The position numbers and the translations under genes were made by a program. Shown here piece by piece: positions 32,101-52,931 of a stretch of DNA of 64,000 nt; positions within the stretch are counted from its first letter, which is position 1, and every line of letters begins with the position of its first letter. The stretch spans positions 45,692 through 109,691 of the forward strand of contig DATDVR010000005.1 in NCBI GenBank assembly GCA_035289925.1. The letters are read 5' to 3'. The notes beneath the pieces are model-generated. The model was not told the DNA's origin. It saw only the letters and a list, made by a program, of their open reading frames with translations, and did not search any database. The stretch is from Candidatus Nanoarchaeia archaeon. Its GTDB lineage: Archaea; Nanobdellota; Nanobdellia; SCGC-AAA011-G17; DATDVL01.

Positions 32101-34170
32101 TTGCTGAGCGAAGATAGTGCAATCTCAATACAGTTTTCAAATGCAAACACAAAACTTAATGATACTAACACTGAACTCTACAAGCTGAATGCAAAGACAG
32201 CAGCTTTCAAGGAACATTCTTCTACAGACTTGGCAATTAACAAGATTTTAAGCTTAAAGAATAAAAATGTCCATGGTCTGATAACAGATTTAGGAAAAAT
32301 AGATTCAAGATATACTATGGCAATGGAAGTTGCAGCAGGCTCAAGGATGAAGGCAATAGTTGTAGAAGATGACAAAACAGCAGCAGAGTGCATCAAAGTA
32401 TTAAAGGAAAGCAAGATGGGTACATGCTTATTTTTACCATTAAACAAGATAAAGGGAAGCCAAAAGCCAAACGCTACCGGAAATGGAGTCTTGGGAAATG
32501 CTTTAGACTTAATAGAATTTGATTCTAAATACAAAGAAGCCTTCTCATATGTCTTTGGATCTACACTAATTGTAAATGATGTTGAGACTGCAAGAAGAAT
32601 TGGAGTTGGAAAGTGCAGAATGGTTACATTGGATGGGGATTTATTTGAATCTTCAGGAGCAATAGTTGGCGGATTCAGGAAACACAAGCTAAGCTTTGCA
32701 TTCAAGGAAAAAGATGTTGATGAAAAAATAAAAGTATTAGAAGATGAAATTGAAAAAAATCATAATCTAATCAAGCTATTGAACAGAAAAAGAGAAGACA
32801 ATCATAAAAAAATAAGCGAGCTAAGAAACAACAGGTCATTGTTTGAAGCAGAAATATTCAAGATTGAACAGACAGCAGGCTCAATAGACATTGAAAAGCT
32901 TGAGGAAGAAATTAAGCAGCTAAGCAAGAGCCAAGAGCTGAAAGATGTTGAAGAGCTTGAAGAGCTTGTAAAAAACAAGGAAAAGAACCTGGAAAAAATA
33001 AAGAAAGAGAAGGAAGAGCTCAAGGGAAGTAACAGCGAGCAAGATGGAGAGGTCATAAACAAGCTGGATTCGTTGGAAACAAAGAGAAACAAAACCAAAG
33101 AAGAGCTAATACAGTGCAGGAACGAGATAAAGAACATTGAAATACAGATAAGCAGCATCTACCAACCAGAAAAAGAAAAAGCACTGCAGATCATAAAACA
33201 GCAGGAAAAAGAATTTGAAAACTTCAGGAACGAAGCCGGAGAAATTGAAAAGAACCTTATAACAAACAACAAGCATCTTGCTGAAAAAGACAAGTTATTC
33301 ACAAGATTCCAGCGGGACTACAAAGATTTATTTTTGAAGAGAAACAAGATTTCTGAGGAAATAACAAAAAGAGAAGCAGGCATCGGAAATGAACTAACCA
33401 GAATAAGAGAGATTGAAGGAAAAATAAACAACCTTTCAATTAATAGAGCAAAGATAGTGGCAGAATATGAGGGCTTGGCAAAAGAATTCGAGCAGTACCA
33501 AGGAGTTTCATTAAGAAAGGGGACAAGCATAGAAGAACTTAAATTGGAGATAAGGAAGTTTGAACAGTCATTAATACAAATGGGCAATGTAAACTTGAAA
33601 GCACTTGAAGTTTATGAAGATGCTGAAAAAGAATACAACCATATCATGGAAAAAGCAGAGACACTGAAAACTGAAAAGAATGATGTTCTGAACATGATAG
33701 GGGAAATAGAGAAGAACAAGAAAGGGTTGTTCATAAAAACCTACAAGGAAATAGCAAACAACTTCAAGAATATATTCATGTCATTGTCAAGAAAAGGAGA
33801 AGCATTCTTGGAGCTTGAAAACAAGGAAGATCCACTTTCAGAAGGGCTTGACATAAAGGTAAGATTGGTTGGCAACAAGTTTCTGGACATAAAATCATTG
33901 TCTGGAGGAGAAAAGACCTTGACAGCGCTAGCATTTTTGTTTGCAATACAAGAATACCAGCCAGCTTCATTCTATTTACTGGATGAAGTCGATGCAGCTC
34001 TTGACAAGACAAACGCAGAATTGTTATCTAAATTGATTGCGAAATATTCTCAGAATGCACAATACATCTTGATTTCTCACAACGACGCTGTCATTACTGA
34101 AGCTCCTTTCATTTATGGAGTGTCAATGCAGGAAAACGGAGTTTCAAAAATTGTCAGTCTGAAGATTTAG
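29164..34170 (+). CDS. smc: SMC chromosome-segregation ATPase (intein-containing precursor, 1668 aa; ~1143 aa after splicing)
   Basis: Walker A GPNGSGKS, long K/E-rich coiled coils, a hinge (GLITDLG...YTMAMEVAAG), the signature LSGGEKTLTALAF, and Walker B FYLLDEVDAALD. Confidence 0.9.
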   Translation: MTYITKMRLHGFKSFAKPTELEFGNNFNVVIGPNGSGKSLSGESKVLLSNGEEIKIKKLAEKQLKETDKVYTLDDGVYCKSKEPIKIFSLNPLSMKNEEYQVSKFIRRNGEPFLYKIKTRTGKSVTCTGCHPVMVFRENRVISSLVKDLKNNDAIATPRIIHTNSTSKDKDFARLFSYLVGDGYIRTDRIEFGNDDKDIIEDLKRLVFELFGFKPQYEKISGKNYTKLIYYQKDFINKVIELIKNKHNKYTTEYKYIPNYFLSKDLETTSHILAGLYDTDGFVHKDDNTIEFSSKNERLTDQVQSLFLRFGIVAVKKTKVKWASNTAKKIKRKYYFLYIQNYKDMKKFYENIPLKCKYKIERLEKHLKNIKISNPNIDLLPIEVNQLIKKAINLLGIKYKPLRKDYPKLAAYMEDRCNPTRQGLQEIIPILSSKLLEIYTTGLSLKQDQLELVNAMDELGLSGRQTSRELGLSQQIIRDYWAKNLFQAKPKNLENFYNFIKSSITYRIEEIKNIFNTLYNLANSDIFWDEITSIEKVKGEKYVYDLTIPNNHNFIADGIFVHNSNIMDALTFVLGNISAKSMRAEKAANLIFNGGKKGSAMKDAEVALFFDNSKKEFPVEHNPVKVSRIIKDSGSSVYKMNDDTVTRQQILELLSHAKIDPDGHNIVLQGDITYFMEMKPEERRQIIEEVSGISIYEDKKQKAMLELTKVDTKLNEAEIILTERSSFLRELKKERDQALKYKELEKNIKSNKATFLHIQMNEAEEKRDEVEKRINEHQSDLDKINNKIKDIKEKIDNEKKNLDNVNKDIEEKGEIESLKIQKEIEDLRTSKIRSEERLNTCKTEIEKINERIKQLNEGLKDNDNTIYGLENSKKELEKKAKEIEAKEAKNEEEIKKFKEKYNIFDASSFEKIEKEFENLQSDILETRNKYNNLLQKKFQIDSKINFLKERIKQGEKLEGSANLKKNKNELKKVNDELTKLLSEDSAISIQFSNANTKLNDTNTELYKLNAKTAAFKEHSSTDLAINKILSLKNKNVHGLITDLGKIDSRYTMAMEVAAGSRMKAIVVEDDKTAAECIKVLKESKMGTCLFLPLNKIKGSQKPNATGNGVLGNALDLIEFDSKYKEAFSYVFGSTLIVNDVETARRIGVGKCRMVTLDGDLFESSGAIVGGFRKHKLSFAFKEKDVDEKIKVLEDEIEKNHNLIKLLNRKREDNHKKISELRNNRSLFEAEIFKIEQTAGSIDIEKLEEEIKQLSKSQELKDVEELEELVKNKEKNLEKIKKEKEELKGSNSEQDGEVINKLDSLETKRNKTKEELIQCRNEIKNIEIQISSIYQPEKEKALQIIKQQEKEFENFRNEAGEIEKNLITNNKHLAEKDKLFTRFQRDYKDLFLKRNKISEEITKREAGIGNELTRIREIEGKINNLSINRAKIVAEYEGLAKEFEQYQGVSLRKGTSIEELKLEIRKFEQSLIQMGNVNLKALEVYEDAEKEYNHIMEKAETLKTEKNDVLNMIGEIEKNKKGLFIKTYKEIANNFKNIFMSLSRKGEAFLELENKEDPLSEGLDIKVRLVGNKFLDIKSLSGGEKTLTALAFLFAIQEYQPASFYLLDEVDAALDKTNAELLSKLIAKYSQNAQYILISHNDAVITEAPFIYGVSMQENGVSKIVSLKI
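29278..30852 (+). mobile_element. 525-aa intein with a LAGLIDADG homing-endonuclease domain, inserted in the SMC P-loop
   Basis: GPNGSGK|SLSGESKVLLSNG (block A, Ser1) ... TCTGCHPVMV (block B TxxH) ... YLVGDGYI and LAGLYDTDGFV (two LAGLIDADG motifs) ... NFIADGIFVHN|SNIMDAL. Rejoining gives the canonical GPNGSGKSNIMDAL. Confidence 0.85.
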
Positions 34171-35410
34171 ATTTTTTTCTTAAAAATACATGGTGGAGAA
34201 TTATCAATATAACAAGAAGAAGCAAATAAAACAAGGTGCTTGCCCTAGGTATTGTAATTTCCAAGGGAGTTTCAAAAACTATTTTCTGCCTGTTTACAAC
34301 AAAGAAGTCAGAGTCTGCTGCCAAAGAATCTAAATTGGTAACTTGAACCGTGAATATATAATTGCCATCTCTAATGCCTTCAGGAAGCTTCAATGTTTTT
34401 TCAAAAATCTTTACATCGTTAACCAAAACGTTGTTTTCTCTTTCCTGAACTATTATATTACCCTTGAAATCTTTTATTGTGTAATAAACTTCAGAGTACA
34501 AAGGATAAGTTTTCTTCAAAGCTGTTATCTTGACATCTGCAGTGACGCTGTCCTTGTCTCTTATGACTCTGCTTTCATCTTTCAAGTTGACCTTGACATC
34601 AAAAAATCTCTGCCTGCTTTCAACCTGAAGGATTATTGGGACTTCCTTCAATGTCCTGCCGCCTAAGACATTTATTTTTCCTGTGAAAACACCCAATTTC
34701 TTTCCAAAGACATAAAATTCAAGTATCTTGCCCTCGTTTGTATTCAAGTCAAATTCACGTTCTTTCAAAGTTATAAAATCTTCAAGTCCTTCCACTGAAA
34801 TGTAAAACTTCAACTTTGAAGGTGAGTGACTCAATATCGACAGGCTTGAAAGGATTGTCTCATCTTTAACCAAGTTGAACTTGAATGATTTTGGCTTTAT
34901 TGAAAACAATTCAACATTGCTTTTTGTACCTTCACCATCGCTGTCAAAAGAGCCAGTGAAATTTACTCTGAAGTTTGACGTTGAGAAGTTCTGATTGTTT
35001 GCAGTGTCGTTTGCATAAGCATAGAATATAAAAGTAACATATTGCGGTGGAACATCTAAAGTTCCCTGAGAGCCTGTGCAGCTTATTCTATTGAATTCGG
35101 GAGTCAACAATATTCCAGTTGATGTTGTAACCTTGTACCAGCAACTGTCTAGAATCTGGTTGTCATCAAAAACAACAAGTATTGGAATGTTTGTGGCATT
35201 ATTAAAGAATCCAGACGGATTAAATATTGTTATTGAAGGAGAAAAGAAGTCTGTTGATGCATTTGCCATTATTGAAAAATTAGTCCTTGAAGAAGATGCC
35301 AAAACATCATGGCCAATGAAGATTATTCTGTAATCCTTAAGGCTTATTATTACAAAAAAAACTACAAAAATGCCGATAAGTACAAATATGAACTTTTTAT
35401 TTAGTGTCAT
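34154..35410 (-). CDS. surface protein with an N-terminal signal anchor, Ig-like repeats and a C-terminal TM anchor
   Basis: N-terminal hydrophobic helix. C-terminal LFYLLLLVILIIL followed by a basic tail. NxS/T-rich. Its 3' end overlaps the smc 3' end by 17 nt (convergent). Confidence 0.55.
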   Translation of the reverse strand: MTLNKKFIFVLIGIFVVFFVIISLKDYRIIFIGHDVLASSSRTNFSIMANASTDFFSPSITIFNPSGFFNNATNIPILVVFDDNQILDSCWYKVTTSTGILLTPEFNRISCTGSQGTLDVPPQYVTFIFYAYANDTANNQNFSTSNFRVNFTGSFDSDGEGTKSNVELFSIKPKSFKFNLVKDETILSSLSILSHSPSKLKFYISVEGLEDFITLKEREFDLNTNEGKILEFYVFGKKLGVFTGKINVLGGRTLKEVPIILQVESRQRFFDVKVNLKDESRVIRDKDSVTADVKITALKKTYPLYSEVYYTIKDFKGNIIVQERENNVLVNDVKIFEKTLKLPEGIRDGNYIFTVQVTNLDSLAADSDFFVVNRQKIVFETPLEITIPRASTLFYLLLLVILIILHHVFLRKKSKSSD

Positions 35411-35787
35411 GTTCTTTTTGAATAAATCTTTATTTGACCTTCATACAAACCCTGCTTGGCATCACTAGGAACAGAAGCTGTCATAGTGACCTTCTTTTTC
35501 TCACCAGGTGAAATTAAAAAATTGTTGATAGATGGATGAACAAAGTCAACATCATCTACAAAAATTTCTATTCTAGCATCCTTATCTGATGTAACAAAAA
35601 TGTCTCTGTCAGCAGAATTTCCAGCAGGTATAGTGCCAAAATGAATCTTGTCTGCGTCCAAATTAAATCCGACATGGTCTCCAACAACAACGTCAAAATA
35701 TAAAATTTCAACACTAAAGTTAAAATAAAGTACTGAAGCTACTAGAGCAATGAATATAAAAGGAACTAAAAAAAAACTAATCTTCAT
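35407..35787 (-). CDS. small secreted Ig-like (PapD-like pattern) protein
   Basis: Signal helix, then a beta-rich domain (FGTIPAGNSADRDIFVTS...KKKVTMTASVP). 4-nt overlaps with the genes on both sides. Confidence 0.5.
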   Translation of the reverse strand: MKISFFLVPFIFIALVASVLYFNFSVEILYFDVVVGDHVGFNLDADKIHFGTIPAGNSADRDIFVTSDKDARIEIFVDDVDFVHPSINNFLISPGEKKKVTMTASVPSDAKQGLYEGQIKIYSKRT

Positions 35788-36916
35788 CTTCCTTCTTCCT
35801 CCTGCCCAATATGAACCAGAGCAAGTCTATCAATATTATGAAGATTATTATCCCTATAAGCAACTTTGTCATGTCAATCTTAAGTCTTTCAAATATGTAG
35901 ATTTTTCCTGTCTCTTCATAGCTTTCATTCTCATAAGACAACCTAATCAAGATTCTATACTCGCCTTTATTCAATCCAGTTGTGTCAAAGAAAGTCCATA
36001 AAGTATCCTGAGCCCATGGCTTCAAGTCAAGAGATGGTGTCTTAAAAGAAGTTACAACCTCTCCATTTGCATCAAGAACAAAAACCTGAGCTGAAACTCC
36101 CTTTACTTCCTTTCCCCACCTATTCTCTATTTCCAACTCAAACCTTGATATCTTGTCCTTCTCAAAAGTATTTGAATAATTAAGAAGCTTCACGAAAAAA
36201 GTTCCAATCTTGAATGGCTTTTCAGCGCCAAAAGCTATTCCATCATATCTCAAGACAGCCCTTGCAAAATAATCCCCTGGCTGGAAGTCAGTTGTATTGA
36301 CTTTTGTCCTGAACTCAAAGTCCTCTTGAGAAGGTAAATTCCTTACTATAACAGATATTGATTTAGCAATTTCATTATCTAATGAAAGCTCAATATTTCC
36401 TTCTATCAACCCTATTAAATCGAGACCTACATTTCTTATCTTCATCTCAATGTTCAAATCATCTCCAAGATTAGTGTCTGGAACTTCAAACAAACTTATT
36501 TCTGCATATTTTCCAGGATATGGAATGAAGAAGTATATGGCTGCTTTTACTGTAACAACAGTGCCAAAACCAGTACCTGTGTTTGTAAGCTGGGAGGCCC
36601 CTTCCGTTGCCCCAACATAAACAGGATGCCATCCTGGAGTTAAAGGCTCTTTAGGAAAATTAATCTTAACATTTACATGGTAATTTGACCTTGCAGGAAC
36701 AACAATATTTTTAGGATCTATCTCAACATTGTCTTTTATCGCACCGTCTGGAAACAAAGTAACTGCCATGGGCTCAAAATTTATATTGACAACATCTATG
36801 CCAACTGTAACAGACTCTCCTGGCTTGTATTCTATATTTTGGTCTGATGGTGAAAGCCCAACTGCAGAGACGCTTGCTGCCAACACTAGCATAAAAAACA
36901 AAACCTCTTTTTTCAT
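35777..36916 (-). CDS. CARDB/NEW3-like Ig-repeat surface protein with a C-terminal TM anchor
   Basis: Signal peptide (start trimmed to MKKEVLFFML). It is a paralogue of 38302..39528 (G.Y.a..L.YDG ... RW ... G.Y...i.L.Y). C-terminal LLIGIIIFIILIDLLWFILGRRKK. Confidence 0.55.
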   Translation of the reverse strand: MKKEVLFFMLVLAASVSAVGLSPSDQNIEYKPGESVTVGIDVVNINFEPMAVTLFPDGAIKDNVEIDPKNIVVPARSNYHVNVKINFPKEPLTPGWHPVYVGATEGASQLTNTGTGFGTVVTVKAAIYFFIPYPGKYAEISLFEVPDTNLGDDLNIEMKIRNVGLDLIGLIEGNIELSLDNEIAKSISVIVRNLPSQEDFEFRTKVNTTDFQPGDYFARAVLRYDGIAFGAEKPFKIGTFFVKLLNYSNTFEKDKISRFELEIENRWGKEVKGVSAQVFVLDANGEVVTSFKTPSLDLKPWAQDTLWTFFDTTGLNKGEYRILIRLSYENESYEETGKIYIFERLKIDMTKLLIGIIIFIILIDLLWFILGRRKKEDED

Positions 36917-36930
36917 TATTATTGCCCTCT

Positions 36931-37575
36931 TTAAGTTCCAGGACAAGGCAATACTGAGCAGTAACGTTGAGCAGTAACATTGACCATTGTTTCTCTGTAG
37001 CCTGGCCTGACATCAGCAGGAATTCCTAGATAAATATCTATGTTTAATGCATCTGTAGATTCTGTAAAGGTAAAGTTAGTGCATACGTTTGTTGGAGTTG
37101 CTGTGAATGAAGTGATTGTACCTGTTAAATTGCTTGTTCCTGAACAGCTTCCAGTTTCATTTTGAGAAGCGTTCCATTCATAAGTTGGATTTGTCCCGCC
37201 AATAAAACCAGATGCTGTGACACTATAAATAGTGACATTGACGTCTACGTTCCCGTCATTCTGCAAAACCAAGGGACCTGGATCCTTGAATGATGAAGGA
37301 TTTATGTCGGGATCTGTAGTATTGATTGTTGTAAGGTTTGGGGCATAGACCAAGCTTCCATTGCCGAAGTCTACAAATGAAATGTTGAATCTTACTATGA
37401 CTGTCGGAGCGATAGTAACGTTAACTCTTGCAGAAGCATTTGAAGACTGAAAGCCAGTTATCAAGTTAGAATCAAATTTTCCTAATTTAATAAAGTTTAA
37501 TGATGCTGCAAATAAAGTTATTGCTATGAAAACAAACAAAAGATAAAACAAAGTTTTATTTGTAATCTCAGCCAT
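36931..37575 (-). CDS. secreted protein homologous to the C-terminal domain of the giant protein
   Basis: The start is trimmed to MAEITNKTLFYLLF (ATG 37575-37573; 8-nt overlap with the upstream gene). It shares V.F.....G....P..vQNDGN..vNV and ..DI.i..P.d..PG.R with residues near the C-terminus of 40089..52931. Confidence 0.5.
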   Translation of the reverse strand: MAEITNKTLFYLLFVFIAITLFAASLNFIKLGKFDSNLITGFQSSNASARVNVTIAPTVIVRFNISFVDFGNGSLVYAPNLTTINTTDPDINPSSFKDPGPLVLQNDGNVDVNVTIYSVTASGFIGGTNPTYEWNASQNETGSCSGTSNLTGTITSFTATPTNVCTNFTFTESTDALNIDIYLGIPADVRPGYRETMVNVTAQRYCSVLPCPGT

Positions 37576-37777
37576 TCTTGTTAGCCTCTTTTGAATCAGA
37601 ATTATTTTCAAGCGACAATATGGTAAAGCCAACTTTTCCGCCCGATGCTGGAGGCGAATAATAAATTTCATTTTTTGAGCTTAAGGCATCCAAAGTAATC
37701 CATGTACCTAAAATAGACAAAACTATTGCTATTATTAAGACAACCATTACAAGTTTTCTAGGTATTTCCTCTTCCAT
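37568..37777 (-). CDS. small single-TM protein
   Basis: One hydrophobic helix (LVMVVLIIAIVLSILGTWI). It starts 1 nt after the pilin stop. Confidence 0.4.
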   Translation of the reverse strand: MEEEIPRKLVMVVLIIAIVLSILGTWITLDALSSKNEIYYSPPASGGKVGFTILSLENNSDSKEANKNG

Positions 37778-37778
37778 G

Positions 37779-38234
37779 TTACTCGTATTTTGTTGCTACC
37801 TTACCATTTTCTCTGTGAAGCAACTCTGCTCCTTCTTCCTTATGCCAAAGCACCATATCCTGACTGTATGAATTTCCTTCTGTTCCTGTGGTCAATCCAA
37901 CAAAGTTGCAATTTAATTGTCTTCCTGCTTTCCATGTTGTGCCGTTTGCATCAACCAAAGTGCAGGTTGCATTAACACTTTCAATAACTAAAGCATAATC
38001 AACTAAAGACTTACCAATTCCATTTCTAATAATGAAAGTTCCTGTTCCATCAGACTTGACAATGAAATCATCACAGTTAAATCCTGGAGCCAAGATGCAT
38101 GATTTTGGCAATATCCCTTTTGGATTCAATACACCGAAATAAGCCAATGCTCCAATTGCTATTAGAACTACTAAAATAGCCCAGCCATAGGTCATTAAAA
38201 ACTCTAAAGCTGCTTGTCCTCTTTTGTTATTCAT
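37779..38234 (-). CDS. archaeal type IV pilin-like protein (class III signal peptide)
   Basis: MNNKRG|QAALEFLMTYGWAILVVLIAIGALAYF has a short basic leader, a G/Q cleavage context and a hydrophobic helix, as in the DUF361/class-III signal family. Confidence 0.75.
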   Translation of the reverse strand: MNNKRGQAALEFLMTYGWAILVVLIAIGALAYFGVLNPKGILPKSCILAPGFNCDDFIVKSDGTGTFIIRNGIGKSLVDYALVIESVNATCTLVDANGTTWKAGRQLNCNFVGLTTGTEGNSYSQDMVLWHKEEGAELLHRENGKVATKYE

Positions 38235-38301
38235 GATTTATCACCTTTACTCACTTTGAAGTTAATATATCCTAAACTTTAATTGTATTTAAGCTTTATT
38301 G

Positions 38302-39976: not shown

Positions 39977-40063
39977 CTTTCCTCCTTTGAATATAAAGAA
40001 GCCAAGACAGAGGAAATACCAGGGGGCTCATCCAAGTAATTAACCTCCATCTTAGCTTTTCTT

Positions 40064-40082: not shown

Positions 40083-40088
40083 CGTGAA

Positions 40089-49000: not shown

Positions 49001-52000
49001 CACCATCATAAAGCTTTAGTAATTCACTTTCAGACAATGTCCTGTTGACAATGAATAAAGTGTCTATTGTTCCATTGAAAGAAGATGAAGGAGTTACTGC
49101 TATAGTTCCAATTAATGTAGTGCCATTTGTGTTGTTGAAGCCACCTGAAATTATATTAGAACATGAAGTAACTCTGTGCCTTTCTCTTGGAACTGGTGAG
49201 ATTTGCCAGACAGTTGCGTTCTGGTTTGATGAATTAAAAGTTAATGCGAGGAAATACCACCTGTTTCTTTCTAAAATTATTCCACTTTGAGCTCCCGAAC
49301 ATAATGGAGCTGTAGTTCCTAAAGCATAGAAAGGTTGAGCACCATTGTTTGCAGTTCCCTGAATACCAAATGACTTTCTTCCCCTGTTTGCATTTGCACC
49401 ACCAGCTTCATCCCTATTCATATTAATAATATATCCAAAACCTTGCGAACCTTGCCATTCCCATCTTAAGATAACTCCTATTGTTGCAGAAGAATCATTG
49501 CTAAAATCGAAGTTGGAAGTGTTTTGTCCTTCAATTCTCATGAAAGTTGTCAGGTTAAAGTATCTTGCCTTGCCTTCTATACCTGTTGTAACTGCTGGAC
49601 ATCTTGAAGCGTTGTTTCCTATTCCTAATCCACAAGTTCCGCCCAGAGAAGAATTTGTTGAGCTTAAAAATAAAGTATCATTTTCTCCTGACTCGTTGTT
49701 GAACCCGAAAATTGTAACCTTGTCATTTGGGAAATCTGACTGGCTGAATCTTCTTGGATAGTTTTGAGAACCATTAAAAGTGATATTTTTTAAGGTTTCA
49801 GTGGTATTTAGTGCAAAAACTTTTGATGTATATGTTCCATTTTGAGGATACTTGCCTCTTAATCTTTCAAACAATGCCCTTATCTCCGGGATGCTTAAAG
49901 TCTTGTTGTAGATTGCAACTTCATCTATGAAGCCGTTGAAAGGTGAAGAAGCATTTGTCTGCCCTATATAATACTGCATCTTTCCATCACCATCTAAGTT
50001 AGAAATATTTATCATATTTGCAGAATCAACGCTTCTTAAAGCATATTGGTCAATTCCTGTTGCTCCTCCTTCATCTTGGACAAACAAGGTAACATTAGCT
50101 CCATTGTTGGAATAATTTGAAGTGAACGCTATGAATCTCCATTTTTGATCTGTTGGGCTTCCACCTGCACCAGAAACTTGTATTGTAGTTGTTGTCATGG
50201 TTGCATTGTTGTCATTAACCTGCATTATCAAAGTGCTTGAGCTGAATAATAAGTTGAAAGTATTTTTCTTTGTATTAGCTGGGCCATTGCAAAGGATACA
50301 TAAAGACAATGCTCCAGTTGCATTTGGCATGAACATCAAGACAACTGTTGCGTTCTGGCCTAATCCTATTGGGTTTATTGTTATATTTCTTCCATTTGTT
50401 TGAGTAGTGTTAAATTGTATGAAACCTTGAATGCCGCCAGAATTTGTTAAATCATCTTCAAAGAATATCTTTGGGCACTTGTCTCTTGGGTCATCTGCCA
50501 ATGGAGAGCAAGAACCGTGATTGTTGTTTCCTGAAGAGTCATTGAAGAAAGAAGAATTGCCTTCGTTTCTCCAGCTTTCATTGTTGAAGTGCAATGATAA
50601 TAACAAATTGGAAGTGAGTGAAGTGTTTATTTCTGTGTCATTGCCGTGAACTAAAGTCAAGTTTGAAGCTGTTGTAGATACCTGAGTTGTAATGTTGGTT
50701 GATGAAGTTGCATGCGCTGTAAATTCCTGAGTCGTATTTGTAACTATCAAAAAAGTCTGCAATGACAAGTGAGGAACTATCCACTGTATTTCATCTGCGT
50801 TTCCATCTTCATCATAGTCTGAATAAGTGAAAGGAAGTATTTGATTATTGTTTGTAACCCAGTAAACCCTTATAAAATCTGGATGAATATTAGCTACAGC
50901 AGTATAAGCAAGAACATTCTGATAACTAATGTCAGAAGATACAGAAACTGTTTTCTGGTTTTCTTCTTCAACCTCGACCAACTCAGGACCTTGAGTCTCA
51001 TAAATGACTTCAAGAGTGTCGTTTTTTGTTATGTTTTCATTTATTTTTATTGTAATATTCTCTTCAGGCTCAAAGCCGAAAAATCCCGTAAATCTAAAAA
51101 ACCTTACAAAGAAATTTCCTGTAATAGCATTGCCATTAGATTGAGTTTCATTTTCTAAAACAGGATTTATCTCAATGTCTGCAGTAATATTATTTTTAAG
51201 AACAGTAATGTTCTCAGCATAAGAAGGAATCTCAGTCAATAAACCTGATATAGTTTCATTTACAGTTATTGTCTTGACCCATTTTACAGGCTTTCTTACT
51301 ACAATAGGATAATGCTCTAGAAGTTCTGTAATGTTTGCTTTTGTATAAAGAGGAACTTCAGTTGTAATATTACTCTCATTTGAAGAAGTTTCGTTTGTTA
51401 CATTCACAGGAACAATCGTGACATTGACAATGCTTATGTTCGTTGTTTCATTTGTGATGTTTACTTCTGCTGTAATGTTTGTCTCATTTGAAAGTGTAAA
51501 GTTAGTAACATTTATAGTGAAATTAGTTTCTTCCTGCGTAACATTTGCTTCAGTTTCATTTGTAATGTTTTCTTCAGCTGTCTCGTTTGAAAATGTAAAG
51601 TTAGTCTCAGTTAAGTTTGAAACATTAGATATCATATCTATGGAGATGTTAAAAAAAGTCTCGTTAAATTGCTCTGAAACATTTACTGAAGATTCATTAG
51701 AAGTGTAATTAGTATTGTTTACAGCTATAGCAAATGCAGTGTTCCAAACAGATTCTGAGAATTCTCCAGAAACGTCCTTAATATATTGCCATAAGCCTAA
51801 GCATTCATTTGCATCAAAGTCAAATAAGCTGCACTTGTACAAGCTTCCTGTAGCATCAGAAAAAAATTCTGCCTCGTCAAAATCCAGATCATGCTTGAAT
51901 GCAAAAGAGGTTAAAAAAGAAAGATGAGGTGGGGGGGCTAAATCCACCTCTCTTAACTCTATTGAAGAACCTGACTTTAGATTTTTTATCTTGATTTTTT

Positions 52001-52931
52001 CAACTACATTTCCAGTTATAAGCTCAGAATCAGCATCTAAAGGAGCTATATAATCAATGTCATTTATCTTTATAGAAATTGTCTCATTTTCGTGGACTGT
52101 AAAGCCTGTCAGTTTGAAGTCAGAAACAAAGAAAGTTCCTAAGCCAACAGCAAATAAAAGAAAAACAAGCAGAAATACAAATGGAATTTTTTTCTTTTCA
52201 GAAATTTTTTCAGGCTTTTGCTTCAAGAAATCAATTATTGAATTATTTTTAAGCTTTTCGGGGGTTAAATCAGAATCTATAGTGTAATTGTTGGGGATAA
52301 TAAAAAAAAGACTGAATCTGTGCTTTATTTTTCTTCTTATGGCCAAGTATAAAGCGAACAAAAGCAATAGAATGAAAACAATATAGATAGGCGTGAGATG
52401 ATTGGCAGCAGAATTAAAGCTTTCTAAAAATGGTGTTTTATAGAAACTGGAGGTTATAAAATTAGCTGAAGAACTAGAAAACAAATATAATGTCAATAAT
52501 ATCAAACTTACTGAAGCTGAAACTAATAAAGTCGCGAACAATGGTTTCAAAGGAGAGAAATATAAAATTGATTCTTTCTTCTCTTCTTTTTCAAAGTCAG
52601 AAAGCTTTGCATTTTCATTCTTAAGAAGCTTAGAGTCAAGCTCATGGTAAGATTGTTCCAGCTCAGATTCTGAATCTAGGTCAAAGAATTCTTCGTTTAC
52701 AGGGGCTCTTAATAAATCTAGTCTGTCTATTATCTTTTTATTTTCGTAGTCATCTTCTAATTTTTTTAATTCATTTTCGTAAGCTTCTAATGTTAAAGAT
52801 TTAGTATTAAAGTCAGAAGGAATTGGAGATGATAATAAATTAAGCCTTTCAGAGATAGAACTATCTAGTTTTTTAGAACTAACTACTGCGCCACGCCTTT
52901 TTCTTTGCAAACTACTAACCCCTTTTAACAA
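40089..52931 (-). CDS. giant (4280-aa) membrane-anchored surface protein with nine LamG/concanavalin-A-like lectin domains
   Basis: The N-terminus has three TM helices (about nt 52120-52550), followed by an NxT-rich stalk. Repeated LamG_3 signatures occur (FNDSSGNxxHG ... GKFGGxxxFDG ... W.hva.t.. ... F.G.IDEvAIwNrsL...EI..lY). The C-terminal Ig-like domain is shared with 36931..37575. The track start is a TTG codon. Confidence 0.85.
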   Translation of the reverse strand: MLKGVSSLQRKRRGAVVSSKKLDSSISERLNLLSSPIPSDFNTKSLTLEAYENELKKLEDDYENKKIIDRLDLLRAPVNEEFFDLDSESELEQSYHELDSKLLKNENAKLSDFEKEEKKESILYFSPLKPLFATLLVSASVSLILLTLYLFSSSSANFITSSFYKTPFLESFNSAANHLTPIYIVFILLLLFALYLAIRRKIKHRFSLFFIIPNNYTIDSDLTPEKLKNNSIIDFLKQKPEKISEKKKIPFVFLLVFLLFAVGLGTFFVSDFKLTGFTVHENETISIKINDIDYIAPLDADSELITGNVVEKIKIKNLKSGSSIELREVDLAPPPHLSFLTSFAFKHDLDFDEAEFFSDATGSLYKCSLFDFDANECLGLWQYIKDVSGEFSESVWNTAFAIAVNNTNYTSNESSVNVSEQFNETFFNISIDMISNVSNLTETNFTFSNETAEENITNETEANVTQEETNFTINVTNFTLSNETNITAEVNITNETTNISIVNVTIVPVNVTNETSSNESNITTEVPLYTKANITELLEHYPIVVRKPVKWVKTITVNETISGLLTEIPSYAENITVLKNNITADIEINPVLENETQSNGNAITGNFFVRFFRFTGFFGFEPEENITIKINENITKNDTLEVIYETQGPELVEVEEENQKTVSVSSDISYQNVLAYTAVANIHPDFIRVYWVTNNNQILPFTYSDYDEDGNADEIQWIVPHLSLQTFLIVTNTTQEFTAHATSSTNITTQVSTTASNLTLVHGNDTEINTSLTSNLLLSLHFNNESWRNEGNSSFFNDSSGNNNHGSCSPLADDPRDKCPKIFFEDDLTNSGGIQGFIQFNTTQTNGRNITINPIGLGQNATVVLMFMPNATGALSLCILCNGPANTKKNTFNLLFSSSTLIMQVNDNNATMTTTTIQVSGAGGSPTDQKWRFIAFTSNYSNNGANVTLFVQDEGGATGIDQYALRSVDSANMINISNLDGDGKMQYYIGQTNASSPFNGFIDEVAIYNKTLSIPEIRALFERLRGKYPQNGTYTSKVFALNTTETLKNITFNGSQNYPRRFSQSDFPNDKVTIFGFNNESGENDTLFLSSTNSSLGGTCGLGIGNNASRCPAVTTGIEGKARYFNLTTFMRIEGQNTSNFDFSNDSSATIGVILRWEWQGSQGFGYIINMNRDEAGGANANRGRKSFGIQGTANNGAQPFYALGTTAPLCSGAQSGIILERNRWYFLALTFNSSNQNATVWQISPVPRERHRVTSCSNIISGGFNNTNGTTLIGTIAVTPSSSFNGTIDTLFIVNRTLSESELLKLYDGAFSTAKLQVRSCDDSACSGETFVGKDGTANTYFDNMSQLYTLNSTVTPANKFFQWKLFFESYDRYQTADVNSIQTSYSVEVTPSLTFNFSGNDTSFINGTNFIEKIFNITLNFTAIYNLTTTPLTIEIYGSNSSNINDLNESVLLFKGNDTIFNGTQITYNWTSPLVEKGDKSLILLMHLDNLSSRNENNGTFFNDSSGNENHGLCVGTNCSVTNTSGKFGGTYTFDGIDNFINVTDITDTDNLSEMTVSAWVYARTLLNLKAVVAKFANSNNVGWVIETGTTGVGGNDDFIVSNYGGSQFGYTNDNEFRAGEWFHVAMVFNGSANINSSRLKFYLNGVNRTLTYQINITNNTLPITNNELRIGGVGPTDSVNRFWNGSIDEVAIWNRSLDDYEILNLYRLRNDTYYWIVNVSVGKTSTLHPVNTIYVNREFQPSIKINTPQNNSNYFENRFNLTISINATSANDSLTSPLTVEIYGSNTTTLNDTLLLFKGNDTIFNGTQITYNWTSLVTDNKDSSLLLLYHLDNRTERNELNGSFFNDSSKLNKYGVCSNCPLFNSSGKFGGTYEFDGVANNITFKTIGLINSSFSLWLNWKDSGDGVVIGGSAGHYAPYIDTTTIYYSAVAGNFVSTAHNGFTSGIWNHVVITRSDRQVRFFKNGVQLGSNLTLGSNAVQDIDTIGGYNVGTFPSTMAIDEVAIWNRSLSANEILDLYRLKNGTYYWKVKISDVLYDSKSVNITPLNTLYVNQQTDAPSIVLNAPANGTTFTQGVFNVILNATPYDDVLTQPLRVEIYGRINSSILNDTTLLYKFNGTIFNGSQVTYNWTSPVTVEDNHTILILHANNETKHNEGTTNFFDASGRRSNLSCSGSSCPFFNISGKFGYALQFDGTNDFINTSSLAANDKQEETISLWVMPHTLTGEHKFVSMGHGLAGSGNFLIIYQTGTSVVFALDTGSYQSITATSALSLNKWTHVVATHSVAASRSELYIDGVQRGTMATYEDTSTNHNFIDIGRDSEDSNYYAGLLDEIAIWNRSLRLSEIEDVYRLKNGTYFWIANVSDWINYNFSETRSFCIGVCAQTAPVISNATINYTDTTFFSTSDFINASAYILEENTEDRINATVVLFVNDKANITSTFDNNKIASSTYSVIFNRTNLTSEDDVKLQFSATDGYSTVFLNSSSFIANAPSSFATTKGALSNQINVSANTTILESSIPARNITLVHGNDSEINTTTLSSNDKLLLSLHFNNESWRNEGNSSFFNDSSGNNHHGSCPSLETRCPRILFDDNYTMSGGIQGFLEFNGSSNITVNSLGLGNNATVIMLIMVNGSSSDGCIICNDNSNPQAAQGATMKNTFAFQAGTNIIVQIVDNNATQNLHTISSSGTNNDPDPKKWRFVAFTSNYSSNSANITLFFQDEISGALDYPALKMVGSTSAINISNLDGDGKMNYYIGQRNTSGAFTGYVDEIAIFNKTLSIPEIQSVYERIRSKYPQNGTYTSKVFDLGSLQKFKNITFNGSIDYPRRLSQKDFPNDKVTIFRFNNDTVGENDTLFLDAANNSLGATCGKGVGNNASRCPSITTGIEGNAVNFNTSQFIRIENQNTSNFDYNNDSSFTIGAIINWNGLGSGGSGINYYIFSMNDLDGIAGSSGSKQLYVLAQARNGGDLSWTLGRNSGFCGGGEAGVTLELKRWYLVALTFNHTTQNKTVWHVSPIPREMHPADSCSSIISGGFNNTNETTIIGSETPLAGARGFNGTIDTIFIVNRTLDEFELLRIYDSAFSEAKLQVRSCDDESCSGETFVGVNGTAGSSFENMTQVYPLNDSIVIPNRFFQWKLSYETYDRLQTADVKLVKVGYGTNAAPVLTNAAINYTNGTFFATGEQINASVTVTDSDSEDRINGTAVLFINDKTNITLQFLNSVPSGGILSIVFNATNITVNNTVLVQWNSSDGLLGSNFVNSTVVTVTSRPSDVLTGSAAEFTAILNFSANTTIQVSATAANVTLVHANDSELNNSLYSNMLLSLHFNNESWRNEGNSSFFNDSSGNNNHGSCSPLSLDPRDKCPKISFEDDLTNSGGIQGFLTFNTTGRNITINPIGLGQNATVILMWMPNATGGLSLCIICHSIGLTKSNTFSVLFSSSTLIMQIRDQNATGTTTTIQVSGAGGSPSDQKWRFMAFTSNYSNNGANVTLFVQDEGLGIDAGALRSVDSPNMINISNLDGDGKMNLYLGSANDSSSSASFNGFIDELAIYNKTLSIPEIRAIFERLRGKYPQNGTFTSKVFDLNTTQFFGNLTFNGSQNYPKRLSQKDFPNDKVTIFRFNNESGENDTLFLSSTNSSLGGTCGNGIGNNASRCPAVTTGIEGKARYFNLTTFMRIEGQNTSNFDFNNDSSATIGIIMRWEWQGSQGLGYIININRDESGALNANRGRKSFGIQGTSNNGAQPFYALGTTAPLCGSAQSGVILERNRWYFLALTFNSSDQNATVWTISQIPRERHRVAACTSIISGGFNNTNGTTLIGSLSTSPQSAFNGTIDTLFILNRTLSELELQNIYDSAFSKARLQIRSCDDINCAGESFVGPANTTTSYFENMTQVYPLNESVVPANRFFQWKLSFETFDRYQSSDVKQVAFGFAETAPNIAPTILNVALGPNPANTTDQFNCSFTVSDPNADDVLTTTIKWYNTTTFYQQNSTVVANGTLTSFNFTNALQEKGESWRCGVQVSDGQFTSDETNSSLVSVVNSRPYTVIQNVPANLTVTTERNVNFSWITSGDADSVDRINYTLEILCIGGCASDNRLLNSTTTSLNLTDDLDFFADDGYFYRWFVRSYDGFEYSFNSTHRTLNISVLVAISTDNSSVNFTNAQIGVTDDTTDNSPRPFIVQNDGNSLINVNKTADKLLFVQAPSPSSAFQFKVDNATGEEGAFNWSGSTTTFTNVAVTTQKMFSQLNFSNLTDSGEADISITPPIDEPPGNRSNILTITGYYAGGFP
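41165..43035 (-). repeat. supermodule copy C (two LamG domains + CxxxxC 'QVRSCDD' domain); approximate borders
   Basis: It begins with VTLVHANDSELN...LLSLHFNNESWRNEGNSSFFNDSSGNNNHG and ends with FFQWKLSFETFDRYQSSDV. It is closest to copy A. Confidence 0.7.
43480..45365 (-). repeat. supermodule copy B (more divergent); approximate borders
   Basis: ITLVHGNDSEIN...LLLSLHFNNESWRNEGNSSFFNDSSGNNHHG ... FFQWKLSYETYDRLQTADV. Confidence 0.7.
45790..48790 (-). repeat. three tandem ~330-aa modules (Ig-like + LamG); approximate borders
   Basis: The recurring block FKGNDTIFNGTQITYNWTS...FNDSS...SGKFGGTY.FDG...EVAIWNRSL...YRL.NGTYYW occurs with ~1 kb periodicity. The nt motif ttgtaagtaatttgtgtgccattgaagattgt is at ~48521 and ~47491, with a variant at ~46541. 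Confidence 0.7.
48790..50660 (-). repeat. supermodule copy A; approximate borders
   Basis: LTLVHGNDTEIN...LLLSLHFNNESWRNEGNSSFFNDSSGNNNHG ... FFQWKLFFESYDRYQTADV. It is offset exactly 7617 nt (in frame) from copy C. Confidence 0.7.

What the first reader, a model, noticed from the sequence alone, without database searches (positions are those of the whole stretch)
34154..52931. ~19 kb single-strand operon: giant LamG-repeat protein + type IV pilin-like protein + anchored Ig-like proteins (candidate attachment apparatus)
Nine consecutive minus-strand genes have overlaps or spacers of at most ~110 nt. In order they are:
- the 4280-aa protein;
- a small secreted Ig-like protein;
- an anchored Ig-repeat protein;
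- a class-III-signal pilin;
- a tiny TM protein;
- a secreted protein homologous to the giant protein's own C-terminal domain;
- a second anchored Ig-repeat paralogue;
- another small Ig-like protein;
- a third anchored protein.

The giant protein's C-terminal domain and 36931..37575 share V.F...G...P..vQNDGN..vNV ... DI.i..P.d..PG.R. The NDGN/NAGN..V.V motif recurs in 39521..39976. This suggests a set of interacting or co-assembling modules.

I saw no pilus ATPase, platform protein or prepilin peptidase in the window. For a small-genome archaeon, such a locus is a plausible host- or surface-attachment system and may be uncharacterised as a unit.
Basis: partly seen in the sequence, partly recalled or inferred. 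Interest (0 to 1): 0.75.

Follow-up and report, generated by a model that had tools for sequence, protein, structure and literature searches.

The report
Conserved DPANN giant-adhesin display cassette
The nine genes are real and eight of them form a surface-protein cassette conserved across DPANN (ultra-small, mostly symbiotic) archaea, which probably holds a hypervariable giant sugar-binding protein on the cell surface; the pilin gene is only an occasional passenger.

Summary
In detail: there are nine co-directional minus-strand genes with spacers of 112 nt or less. The claimed paralogies are real (g3~g7, E 9e-25; g6~giant C-terminus, E 3e-9).

In about 60 independent DPANN contigs the same gene families recur in the same order. 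These contigs come from Woesearchaeota, Pacearchaeota, Nanoarchaeota, Aenigmatarchaeota and Parvarchaeum.

- **Module A:** HEAD (427 to 4,280 aa, always ending in a ~170-aa beta-sandwich "handle"), then g2, then IG1.
- **Module B:** g5, D6 (a free-standing handle), IG2, g8 and often G9.
- **Spacing:** junctions inside each module are overlapping or nearly so. A variable slot of 22 nt to 9 kb separates the modules.
- **Pilin:** a class-III pilin sits in that slot only here and in one relative. No pilus ATPase, platform protein or prepilin peptidase recurs in any locus.

The handle has no Pfam family. Its model weakly resembles donor-strand pilins. g5 is a headless copy of the D6 N-terminus. The IG proteins have three Ig domains plus a C-terminal anchor, and their most frequent Pfam match is WxLIP_HBD.

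The logic parallels Firmicute WxL/WxLIP clusters and tip-adhesin fibres. It is not a type IV pilus. The assembly mechanism and any role in host attachment are inferred, not shown. I found no paper describing the cassette.

The parts
40089..52931 (-). HEAD: a 4,280-aa giant surface protein. It has an N-terminal ~128-aa hydrophilic region plus three hydrophobic segments (aa 128-272). An N/T/S-rich low-complexity stretch follows, then 8 LamG domains, arranged partly as three ~2.3-kb super-repeats, then an Fn3-like domain and the C-terminal handle.
   Evidence: ORF; translation; Pfam Laminin_G_3, 8 stretches, E 7e-81; TM-like segments and 252 sequons, observed/expected 2.7; DNA repeats at 71-78% identity.
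40092..40634 (-). The C-terminal 'handle' domain of the giant (about aa 4100-4280). It is the only part of HEAD proteins that is conserved across loci.
   Evidence: BLASTP to g6, E 3e-9; alignment A1. Handle-bearing proteins of 427-3,098 aa lie upstream of IG1 in 41 of 45 loci. The handle is fused to LamG, beta-helix or FG-GAP heads elsewhere.
39521..39976 (-). g2: a 151-aa protein with an N-terminal anchor or signal, an Fn3-like segment (..G.YFW..) and a partial handle (S.V.LN..Y.LEN.GN..VNVTI). Its stop overlaps the IG1 start.
   Evidence: Alignment A4; hhalign to the handle, 76%, E 2e-5; g2->IG1 junction median -8 nt, 41 of 43 at 20 nt or less.
38302..39528 (-). IG1 (g3): signal peptide, three Ig-like beta-sandwich domains and a C-terminal TM helix with a basic tail.
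   Evidence: AF2 model, pLDDT 85. The family has 4,157 representative clusters. Pfam WxLIP_HBD hit on Ig3 is sub-threshold: 21.5 bits against a 28.9-bit cutoff. It is the most frequent Pfam hit in the family, 25 of 100, best 2e-9.
37779..38234 (-). g4: a class-III-signal (type IV pilin-like) protein. It is an accessory gene in the variable slot between the two modules, not part of the core.
   Evidence: N-terminus RG|QAALEF plus a hydrophobic helix. The only other locus with a pilin in this slot is L014, 59% identical.
37568..37777 (-). g5: a 69-aa protein with a TM helix, a linker and one short beta-strand motif (GKVGFTI). It is a headless paralogue of the D6 N-terminus.
   Evidence: Family alignment and hhalign against the D6 family, 96.4%, E 1e-9; g5->D6 junction median -1 nt.
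36931..37575 (-). D6 (g6): a free-standing handle. It has a conserved N-terminal TM (M.EI(S/T)NKTL..), a ~25-aa linker with a TGF motif, and a sequon-rich ~160-aa beta-sandwich.
   Evidence: AF2 model, pLDDT 87. Foldseek top hits are chaperone-usher pilins and CanA, but with E 7e-3 or worse. No Pfam hit in 69 members. 13 sequons, observed/expected 3.4. Consensus.
35777..36946 (-). IG2 (g7): a paralogue of IG1 with a C-terminal TM anchor. The likely true start is the ATG at 36916.
   Evidence: BLASTP g3~g7, E 9e-25; D6+IG2 found downstream in 26 of 42 loci.
35407..35787 (-). g8: a 126-aa N-anchored single Ig-like domain of ASH/DUF1573/fn3_5 type.
   Evidence: Weak Pfam hits; family alignment A5; IG2->g8 junction median -4 nt.
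34154..35410 (-). G9: a 418-aa protein with an N-terminal TM, a variable region, two IG-type Ig domains and a C-terminal TM. It is a divergent third paralogue of IG1/IG2.
   Evidence: Alignment A6; hhalign to the IG family, 95%, E 2e-8; present in 12 of 42 loci.
52932..53310 (-). AT-rich upstream region of the giant gene with TATA-like boxes (for example ACTATATAAATC). Putative promoter; not tested.
   Evidence: Sequence read directly.

Best explanation
This is one copy of a conserved, previously undescribed DPANN-archaeal cell-surface cassette. It displays a hypervariable giant glycan-binding protein. It consists of two tightly coupled sub-operons.

**Module A (HEAD-g2-IG1).** HEAD is a Sec-exported protein whose N-terminal part is free to vary. 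Here it carries 8 LamG domains; elsewhere it carries Cys-rich repeats, beta-helix or FG-GAP. Its last ~170 residues are a conserved beta-sandwich 'handle'. g2 is a small N-anchored protein carrying half a handle. IG1 is a three-Ig-domain protein anchored by a C-terminal TM helix.

**Module B (g5-D6-IG2-g8-G9).** D6 is a free-standing handle. g5 is a TM helix plus a single strand that copies the D6 N-terminus. IG2 and G9 are two more anchored Ig paralogues. g8 is an N-anchored single Ig domain.

**Proposed mechanism (inferred, not shown).** The C-anchored Ig proteins and the small anchored pieces form a membrane-bound scaffold. The scaffold holds the handle domains non-covalently by beta-strand or beta-sheet complementation. 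The constant handle is therefore the cell-proximal attachment point, and the variable LamG array projects outward as an adhesin for host or substrate glycans.

This is the same logic as the WxL/WxLIP complexes of Firmicutes: a small WxL protein, a large protein with a C-terminal WxL domain, and a TM-anchored Ig-domain WxLIP that inserts a strand into WxL. Here there is no peptidoglycan involved.

The type IV pilin gene is a lineage-specific passenger in the variable spacer between the modules.
For: **Shown.**
- Collinear homologues of eight genes occur in about 60 loci from at least five named DPANN lineages.
- A handle-bearing protein lies directly upstream of IG1 in 41 of 45 loci. D6+IG2 lie downstream in 26 of 42.
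- Junctions are conserved and tight: HEAD->g2 median +1 nt, g2->IG1 -8, g5->D6 -1, IG2->g8 -4. The IG1->g5 spacer is never 20 nt or less and reaches 9 kb.
- HEAD length ranges from 427 to 4,280 aa with different head domains but the same C-terminal handle.
- g6 is homologous to the giant's C-terminus.
- g5 is a headless D6 N-terminus. g2 carries a partial handle.
- IG1 is predicted as three Ig domains plus a C-terminal TM helix.
- WxLIP_HBD is the most frequent Pfam hit of the IG family (25 of 100, best 2e-9). In g3 it falls on the TM-proximal domain, the same position as in WxLIP.
- E. faecium WxLIP structures are among the fold matches.
- Sequons are strongly enriched in HEAD, D6 and g2 (observed/expected about 3) and not in IG1 or IG2 (0.6 and 1.2).

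**Inferred.**
- By eye, about 11 of 19 complete HEADs start with an ordinary cleavable-looking signal peptide. They would need another means of retention, and the handle is the only conserved candidate.
- The WxL cluster architecture is taken from PMC10599100 and PMC9772566.
Against: - No interaction was predicted or observed.
- The handle has no WxL motif and no Pfam WxL hit in 69 members. No WxL chain appeared among the 50 listed PDB fold matches of the D6 model.
- The IG-WxLIP similarity is weak. g3 itself is below the gathering score, and CARDB is hit almost as often (19 of 100), so the similarity may be generic to Ig folds.
- This window's giant, and about 8 of 19 other HEADs, have their own N-terminal TM segments, some with long cytoplasmic N-termini. 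A glycosylation-rich low-complexity stretch sits next to them. These proteins could therefore be N-anchored, with the handle at the distal end.
- Host attachment is not tested.
Confidence: 0.5

Rival explanations
1. A chaperone-free donor-strand-complemented fibre that is not a type IV pilus. D6 polymerises head-to-tail as the shaft. HEAD is the tip adhesin: a lectin array plus a C-terminal pilin domain, like FimH, or like TafC of haloarchaeal tafi, which also carries a laminin-G domain. g5, a TM helix plus only the strand, caps the last subunit and anchors the fibre in the membrane. The IG proteins and g8 act as assembly helpers or base.
For: - The best PDB fold matches of the D6 model are almost all donor-strand pilins: CS20, Csu, FimG/FimA/FimI, PapA/PapE. 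Pyrodictium cannulae CanA also matches (probability 1.0, TM 0.55).
- g5 is exactly a D6 N-terminus without the globular domain.
- D6 or g5-D6 is duplicated in several loci (L003, L019, L039, L054, L056, L060).
- The tafi precedent has a LamG tip, an adapter, a shaft and a membrane-anchoring subunit (PMC11821415).
Against: - Foldseek E-values are only 7e-3 to 0.15 and TM-scores are 0.55 or less.
- There is no Pfam Fimbrial, SCPU, DUF1102 or Peptidase_M73 signal in 69 members.
- No SipW/TafD-type signal peptidase, chaperone or usher recurs near the cassette.
- The strand shared by g5 and D6 aligns with a strand that HEAD handles also possess internally. It may simply be the domain's first strand rather than a free donor strand.
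- D6 keeps a strongly conserved N-terminal TM helix, which suggests it stays membrane-bound.
Confidence: 0.22
2. An envelope (S-layer-type) module. The C-anchored Ig proteins are SlaB-like stalks and HEAD/D6 are canopy components of the cell wall, with no specific adhesive role.
For: - IG1 has the SlaB-like plan of beta-sandwich domains plus a C-terminal TM anchor (the SlaA/SlaB comparison is from my own knowledge).
- The Haloferax S-layer protein 7ptp is among the fold hits.
- The IG family is very large, with 4,157 representative clusters.
- Another anchored Ig protein lies just upstream at 54202-55506.
Against: - A lattice protein is not expected to vary tenfold in length or to swap whole domain classes between relatives.
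- At least one MAG carries two cassettes with different heads (L011 and L014).
- LamG arrays point to ligand binding.
Confidence: 0.1
3. One reading: a type IV pilus-related attachment apparatus in which the class-III pilin co-assembles with the giant protein and the Ig proteins.
For: - A bona fide class-III signal is present in g4.
- g4 lies inside the gene string with a Shine-Dalgarno-like GGTGAT upstream.
- A pilin is retained in the same slot in L014 at 59% identity.
- In Mia14 some LamG genes lie near type IV pili loci (PMC5498576).
Against: - The pilin is present in only 2 of the 27 loci where the slot is visible.
- No ATPase, platform protein or prepilin peptidase is found in the window or recurring in related loci.
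- The slot holds unrelated genes elsewhere.
Confidence: 0.04

Closest known systems
WxL / Csc cell-surface clusters of Firmicutes (small WxL + large WxL + WxLIP = DUF916-DUF3324-TM)
   Same: - A small secreted protein consists of one ~170-180-aa beta domain.
- A large protein carries that same domain strictly at its C-terminus, with variable binding domains N-terminal to it.
- One or more Ig-domain proteins have a signal peptide and a C-terminal TM helix.
- All are encoded in one tight cluster.
- The IG family's most frequent Pfam match is WxLIP_HBD, on the TM-proximal domain.
- WxLIP structures are among the fold hits.
   Different: - There is no WxL motif and no PF13731 match.
- The host is archaeal and has no peptidoglycan.
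- The IG proteins have three Ig domains, not two.
- Extra conserved parts have no WxL counterpart: g2 (half-handle), g5 (TM plus strand), g8 and G9.
- There is no LPxTG protein.
- The large protein can reach 4,280 aa.
Donor-strand-exchange fibres: chaperone-usher type 1/P pili (FimH two-domain adhesin), haloarchaeal tafi (TafC/TafE/TafA/TafF), Pyrodictium cannulae (CanA)
   Same: - The adhesin combines a lectin-type module with a domain homologous to the small subunit.
- TafC also carries a laminin-G domain.
- There is a membrane-anchoring minor component.
- The D6 model's best fold matches are these pilins.
   Different: - There is no significant sequence or profile match, and fold scores are weak.
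- No chaperone, usher or dedicated signal peptidase is present.
- The pilin-like domain is at the C-terminus, as in FimH but unlike TafC.
- D6 retains a conserved TM helix.
LamG-rich giant surface proteins of DPANN archaea (Mia14 LamG expansion; nanohaloarchaeal LamG operons and SPEARE-type giants)
   Same: - A small-genome DPANN archaeon devotes about 13 kb to one LamG-rich surface protein.
- Such proteins have been proposed to act in host recognition (PMC5498576 and PMC10266531).
   Different: Those papers describe the giant proteins themselves. They do not describe the conserved C-terminal handle or the seven-gene partner set found here. SPEARE-type giants carry a VirB4/TraG-like ATPase domain, which is absent here.
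Sulfolobales S-layer pair SlaA/SlaB (from my own knowledge)
   Same: A large glycosylated outer protein is held by a stalk protein built of beta-sandwich domains with a C-terminal TM anchor.
   Different: - SlaB uses a coiled coil.
- No sequence relation was seen.
- HEAD is hypervariable in size and domain content, unlike a lattice protein.

Membership tests
[quoted passage not shown] | Small and large proteins share a WxL domain (dual Trp-x-Leu motifs; Pfam PF13731), which is C-terminal in the large protein. | tested here: not met
   A shared domain exists, and it is C-terminal in the large protein. However, it has no conserved W-x-L, and none of 69 family members hits PF13731 at E of 1 or less. 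No WxL chain is in the top 50 fold hits.
WxL/WxLIP cluster | WxLIP: signal peptide, DUF916 (PF06030), DUF3324 (PF11797) and a C-terminal TM helix. | tested here: inconclusive
   A signal peptide, Ig domains and a C-terminal TM are present. PF11797 in g3 scores 21.5 bits, below the 28.9 cutoff. In the family it is hit by 25 of 100 members at E of 1e-3 or less, best 2e-9. PF06030 is hit by only 3 of 25 at E of 0.1 or less. CARDB is hit nearly as often.
WxL/WxLIP cluster | A strand from WxLIP inserts into the WxL domain; peptidoglycan binding. | not testable with these tools
   No multimer prediction is available. DPANN archaea are not known to have peptidoglycan (my own knowledge).
Archaeal type IV pilus locus | Pilin with a class III signal: [KR][GA]|Q...E followed by a hydrophobic helix. 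| tested here: met
   g4 reads MNNKRG|QAALEFLMTYGWAILVVLIAIGAL. The L014 homologue has KA|QAALEF. There is no Pfam or NCBIfam support.
Archaeal type IV pilus locus | Assembly ATPase, membrane platform protein and prepilin peptidase encoded with the pilin. | tested here: not met
   None matched among the scanned window ORFs outside the locus (nearly all of those ≥220 aa plus some shorter ones); several ORFs gave no Pfam match, and 62263-62997 was not scanned. None is among the recurrent neighbours of 61 related loci.
Archaeal type IV pilus locus | The pilin is conserved together with the other genes of the unit. | tested here: not met
   A class-III ORF in the slot was found only in the window and in L014, out of 27 loci with a visible slot.
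Donor-strand-complemented pilins (chaperone-usher, TasA/tafi, CanA) | A subunit with a pilin-type Ig or jellyroll fold. | tested here: inconclusive
   The top PDB hits of the D6 model are these pilins, with probabilities 0.8-1.0. But E-values are 7e-3 to 0.15 and TM-scores 0.55 or less. There is no Pfam Fimbrial, SCPU, DUF1102 or Peptidase_M73 hit.
Donor-strand-complemented pilins | An N-terminal donor strand that completes the neighbour's fold. | not testable with these tools
   A conserved G.VNVTI strand follows a low-confidence linker in D6, and it is the only extracellular element of g5. Whether it is exchanged between subunits needs oligomer models or structures.
Donor-strand-complemented pilins | A dedicated chaperone/usher or SipW/TafD-type signal peptidase in the cluster. 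| tested here: not met
   No such family is among the recurrent neighbours. Cannulae are chaperone-free, so this does not exclude the mechanism.
Laminin G-like / concanavalin A-like lectin superfamily (giant protein) | Pfam PF13385 match above the gathering score. | tested here: met
   270 bits against a cutoff of 27.6, with 8 stretches.

The most novel reading that the evidence does not exclude
The cassette is the general host/substrate-attachment organelle of Woese-, Pace-, Nano- and Aenigmatarchaeota. It would be an archaeal, peptidoglycan-independent counterpart of WxL/WxLIP that works by strand complementation. A new DPANN-only handle domain lets cells plug interchangeable giant adhesins of 0.4 to 4.3 thousand residues into a constant membrane socket built from IG1/IG2/G9, g2, g5 and g8. 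Head swapping at a fixed handle would then be how these symbionts change host or ligand specificity.
Probability: 0.3. Interest if true: 0.85.

Novelty: new variant of a known kind. Interest (0 to 1): 0.68.

Why it matters
How DPANN archaea attach to hosts or surfaces is a central open question. Giant LamG proteins have been pointed to, but without any partner proteins or mechanism. This analysis does three things:

- It turns one anonymous 19-kb gene string into a defined, widely conserved eight-family cassette.
- It identifies a recognisable constant part, the handle, which has no Pfam family.
- It gives a concrete, testable architecture: who anchors, who is displayed, and which gene is a passenger.

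The result supplies specific targets for multimer modelling, metaproteomics, and cryo-ET of enrichment cultures. It also gives a marker (handle plus IG pair) for finding the displayed adhesins in any DPANN genome.

Tried and rejected
1. **Type IV pilus apparatus.** Rejected. The pilin is not conserved with the cassette and no machinery was found.
2. **True WxL membership of the handle.** Rejected. There is no PF13731 hit, no WxL motif, and no WxL chain among the top 50 fold hits.
3. **Sequence links to solved structures.**
   - Profiles A1 and A2 gave only noise (E of 0.04 or worse).
   - phmmer with two IG homologues that carry PF11797 gave nothing useful, so no WxLIP sequence could be obtained for a profile-profile test.
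4. **Second-iteration profile search of the handle (75 sequences, E up to 1).** It found only more proteins named as DPANN and no known family.
5. **Fold search of D6 against viral models.** Nothing at E of 1e-3 or better.
6. **NCBIfam on all nine proteins.** Nothing meaningful.
7. **Tool failures that had to be redone.**
   - The first genome scan with the 25-sequence alignment failed for lack of conserved stretches. It was redone with 9 sequences.
   - A protein self-BLAST of the giant printed nothing. It was replaced by DNA repeat finding.
   - A Pfam scan of 150 IG homologues exceeded the size limit. It was redone with 100.
8. **The NDGN motif as evidence of a special interaction.** Downgraded. 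The same F..N.G...V turn occurs in g8, the IG domains and generic CARDB/ASH/DUF1573 domains.


Full report
**1. Observation**

The largest spacer is 112 nt, between the giant gene and g2. Most other junctions overlap or nearly so. g2, g4 and g8 are preceded by GGAGG or GGTGA-type ribosome-binding sites.

The giant ORF (40089-52931, 4,280 aa) opens with TTG and has no in-frame ATG for about 420 codons. Because the frame stays open over this stretch in a ~31-35% GC genome, I take the N-terminal part as coding.

Pfam finds 8 Laminin_G_3 stretches in the giant (E 7e-81). The gene contains three copies of a large internal repeat with start-to-start spacings of 2.3 and 5.3 kb, at 71-78% nucleotide identity.

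BLASTP confirms the claimed paralogies. g3 matches g7 at E 9e-25, and g6 matches giant residues 4123-4273 at E 3e-9. The g2~g6 similarity is marginal by BLAST (E 0.05) and moderate by profile comparison (76%). g9 is a distant paralogue of g3/g7 (95%, E 2e-8).

g4 has a textbook class-III signal by direct reading, RG|QAALEF followed by a hydrophobic helix. No library model supports it.

No pilus ATPase, platform protein or prepilin peptidase matched any of the 29 window ORFs outside the locus that I scanned against Pfam. These covered 20 of the 21 ORFs of 220 aa or more. Several gave no Pfam match at all, and one ORF of that size (62263-62997, 244 aa) and most shorter ones were not scanned, so absence is not fully shown.

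**2. Is it a unit?**

I first searched with g3 and found 26 homologues, all from metagenomes; the few that carry source names are DPANN. The contigs encoding seven of them already showed the same neighbours in the same order.

A scan of GTDB species representatives then added 56 loci. These are named Woesearchaeota, Nanoarchaeota/Nanoarchaeia, Pacearchaeota, Aenigmatarchaeota and Parvarchaeum. A few bins are labelled Methanosarcinales or 'bacterium', which I suspect are labelling errors.

With HMMs built from my family alignments, one pattern recurs throughout: HEAD - g2 - IG1 - [slot] - g5 - D6 - IG2 - g8 - (G9).

Counts over 61 non-redundant loci:

| Feature | Loci |
|---|---|
| Handle-bearing protein directly upstream of IG1 | 41 of 45 where visible |
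| g2 adjacent to IG1 | 35 of 59 |
| D6 downstream (loci with ≥3 kb downstream) | 27 of 42 |
| D6 + IG2 downstream | 26 of 42 |
| g8 downstream | 23 of 42 |
| g5 downstream | 22 of 42 |
| G9 downstream | 12 of 42 |

Junction spacing:

| Junction | Median gap (nt) | Junctions at ≤20 nt |
|---|---|---|
| HEAD->g2 | +1 | 26 of 31 |
| g2->IG1 | -8 | 41 of 43 |
| g5->D6 | -1 | 21 of 28 |
| IG2->g8 | -4 | 22 of 25 |
| D6->IG2 | about +40 | 10 of 36 |
| IG1->g5 | +160 | 0 of 25 (range 22 nt to 9.2 kb) |

One caveat applies to the junction figures. For each downstream gene I picked, among the ORF start and the Met codons in its first 45 residues, the start that gave the most compact junction. This biases the gaps towards small values.

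The cassette is therefore two tightly coupled sub-operons joined at a variable slot.

**3. The pilin**

A relaxed class-III pattern search over all ORFs of all loci found a pilin in the slot only in this window and in L014. The two pilins are 59% identical. Elsewhere the slot is empty or holds unrelated genes.

Clustering all unassigned neighbours found no ATPase, platform protein, peptidase, chaperone or usher recurring in four or more loci. The recurrent neighbours were:
- a ~106-aa coiled-coil protein;
- a ~149-aa TM protein;
- a ~157-aa HTH-like protein;
- further large surface proteins.

None of these four is present in the window. The pilin is a lineage-specific passenger, not a core part.

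**4. The parts**

*HEAD.* Complete HEADs range from 427 to 3,098 aa, and this one is 4,280 aa. Their N-terminal parts differ in kind: LamG arrays, Cys-rich 'TNAHAE' repeats, and, in database relatives, parallel beta-helix or FG-GAP/VCBS. Only the last ~170 residues are constant.

*Handle family.* This family covers both HEAD C-termini and D6. It has 97-131 clusters at 90% identity. Nearly all that are named are DPANN, now including Undinarchaeales; one is labelled Parcubacteria. None carries a precomputed Pfam domain on the handle. Scanning 69 members against Pfam gives no recurrent family.

*D6 model.* The AF2 model (pLDDT 87) shows three elements:
- an N-terminal helix;
- a low-confidence linker of about 20 residues;
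- a nine-strand beta-sandwich.

Its best PDB matches are almost all donor-strand pilins (CS20, Csu, FimG/A/I, PapA/E) plus Pyrodictium CanA. However, E-values are only 7e-3 to 0.15 and TM-scores are 0.55 or less. No viral model matched at E of 1e-3 or better.

*D6 and g5.* D6 proteins share a strikingly conserved N-terminus: M.EISNKTL.vLLi.AI.iSl.GT, then a linker, then TGfA...G.VNVTI. The g5 family is homologous to exactly this segment and nothing more (hhalign 96.4%, E 1e-9). g5 is thus a TM helix plus one strand.

*g2.* g2 is an N-anchored Fn3-like segment plus the first strands of a handle.

*IG1.* IG1 models confidently (pLDDT 85) as three Ig-like domains and a C-terminal TM helix. Its family is very large: 4,157 representative clusters at E of 1e-3 or less.

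*g8.* g8 is a single ASH/DUF1573/fn3_5-like Ig domain with an N-terminal anchor.

*Sequons.* N-x-S/T sequons are about threefold over-represented in HEAD, D6 and g2. They are not over-represented in IG1 or IG2. This fits exposed glycosylated parts versus buried or membrane-proximal scaffold parts; that reading is an inference.

**5. Comparison with known systems**

*WxL/Csc clusters.* The arrangement matches the published definition of these Firmicute clusters: a small protein that is essentially one domain, a large protein carrying that domain strictly at its C-terminus behind variable binding domains, and signal-peptide Ig-domain proteins with a C-terminal TM helix (PMC10599100, PMC9772566). 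In those clusters WxLIP is predicted to insert a beta-hairpin into WxL.

There is also a sequence thread. WxLIP_HBD (DUF3324) is the most frequent Pfam match of the IG family:
- 12 of 25 members at E of 0.1 or less;
- 25 of 100 members at E of 1e-3 or less, best 2e-9.

In g3 the match lies on the TM-proximal domain, as in WxLIP. E. faecium WxLIP structures (9i25_C, 9i1y_A) appear among the IG1 fold matches. They sit at ranks 16 and 42 among many generic multi-Ig hits.

Membership nevertheless fails on the defining feature. The handle has no WxL motif or PF13731 match and no WxL chain among the top fold hits. CARDB is hit by IG proteins almost as often as WxLIP_HBD.

I therefore file the cassette as 'works like', with possible distant homology of the anchored component. 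It is not a WxL cluster.

*Donor-strand fibres.* This is the second analogy. FimH and haloarchaeal TafC combine a lectin module with a subunit-like domain, and TafC's lectin module is laminin-G (PMC11821415). Tafi also has a membrane-anchoring terminal subunit. The fold hits of D6 and the headless g5 fit this picture. The weak scores, the absence of a TafD/SipW-type peptidase, and the conserved TM helix of D6 do not.

**6. Mechanism**

*Best supported (confidence about 0.5).* A membrane socket built from the C-anchored IG paralogues and the small anchored pieces holds handle domains by strand or sheet complementation. The constant handle is the proximal attachment point and the variable, glycosylated LamG array is displayed outward.

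The main argument is that a conserved partner set can reach a constant handle whatever the HEAD length only if the handle sits at the membrane. In addition, about 11 of 19 complete HEADs look, by eye, as if they start with ordinary cleavable signal peptides. Those would need some other means of retention.

The main counter-argument is that this window's giant and about 8 of 19 others have N-terminal TM segments with cytoplasmic extensions. Here, an N/T/S-rich stretch sits next to them. These proteins could be N-anchored, with the handle at the far end.

*Rivals.*
- Donor-strand fibre: about 0.22.
- S-layer-type envelope module: about 0.1.

Host attachment is plausible for a DPANN archaeon with LamG arrays (PMC5498576, PMC10266531), but nothing here tests it.

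**7. Novelty and verdict**

The literature held here describes LamG giants and many unannotated membrane or extracellular DPANN-specific families. I found no description of this cassette, of the handle domain, or of any donor-strand or WxL-like system in DPANN. The search is limited to open-access full text, so it is not exhaustive.

I rate the finding a new variant of a known kind: a multi-protein cell-surface adhesin display system built around a new domain family. Interest is 0.68.

Noticed in passing
window 29164-34170 (+): The SMC gene (1,668 aa), convergent with and overlapping g9 by 17 nt, carries an intein with a LAGLIDADG homing-endonuclease domain. The intein is inserted right after the Walker A motif: Intein_splicing spans aa 47-563 and LAGLIDADG_3 is also matched.
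   Followed up: partly
window 54202-55506 (-): Another surface protein lies 1.3 kb upstream of the giant on the same strand. It is 434 aa, with a signal peptide, an NPCBM_assoc/NEW3-type Ig domain and a C-terminal TM. It is not a member of the IG or G9 families by my HMMs.
   Followed up: partly
window 12633-15732 and 56261-57508: Mobile-element genes lie around the locus: a phage-type integrase (12633-13994), a TnpB/Cas12f-like OrfB (14668-15732) and a DDE transposase with a SWIM finger (56261-57508).
   Followed up: no
window 53311-54022 (+): Two small overlapping plus-strand ORFs sit between the giant's promoter region and the next surface protein. The second has a DUF2283 domain; the first has no match. 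They may be a small toxin-antitoxin-like pair.
   Followed up: no
window 58376-60263: A D12-class N6-adenine DNA methyltransferase lies next to an HNH endonuclease gene on the opposite strand. This is a likely restriction-modification pair. An AbiEii-type toxin is at 24181-24864.
   Followed up: no
L008:3247, L027:4815, L028:2755, L064:1875 (HEAD N-termini): Several large HEAD proteins begin with the same cytoplasmic motif, M(V)(Y/H)KKYI.RDGK.YGPY.Y.S, before their TM helix. Its function is unknown. This window's giant has a different, acidic, coiled-looking N-terminal region.
   Followed up: no
L001, L013, L030, L049, L058, L061, L063 (short HEADs): Short HEADs of 500-900 aa carry Cys-rich repeats with a recurring (S/T)N.(T/S)NAHA(E/Q) motif instead of LamG. 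This may be a metal- or glycan-binding module and was not identified.
   Followed up: no
L003:1-3354: Upstream of one cassette lie three KaiC/RecA-like ATPase genes (PF06745) and a DUF87/HerA-like ATPase. They did not recur in other loci.
   Followed up: partly
L011 and L014 (both MAG DATDVX01); L031 and L055 (both CAYRIP01): Two IG-family loci occur in the same MAG. In DATDVX01 the two have different heads, so genomes can carry more than one cassette.
   Followed up: no
L022, L052, L054, L057, L058; L048: Several cassette-bearing contigs are titled 'uncultured Methanosarcinales archaeon' or 'bacterium', and one handle protein is titled Parcubacteria. These are probably taxonomic labelling or binning errors, but a wider distribution was not excluded.
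   Followed up: no
many loci, e.g. window giant aa ~275 (KLTGFTV), D6 (LITGFQ), L013:11194-11643: A short [IL][TS]G[aromatic/aliphatic][AVT] motif follows the first TM helix of many unrelated secreted proteins in these loci. It may mark a processing site or a common first strand. This is unexplained.
   Followed up: no
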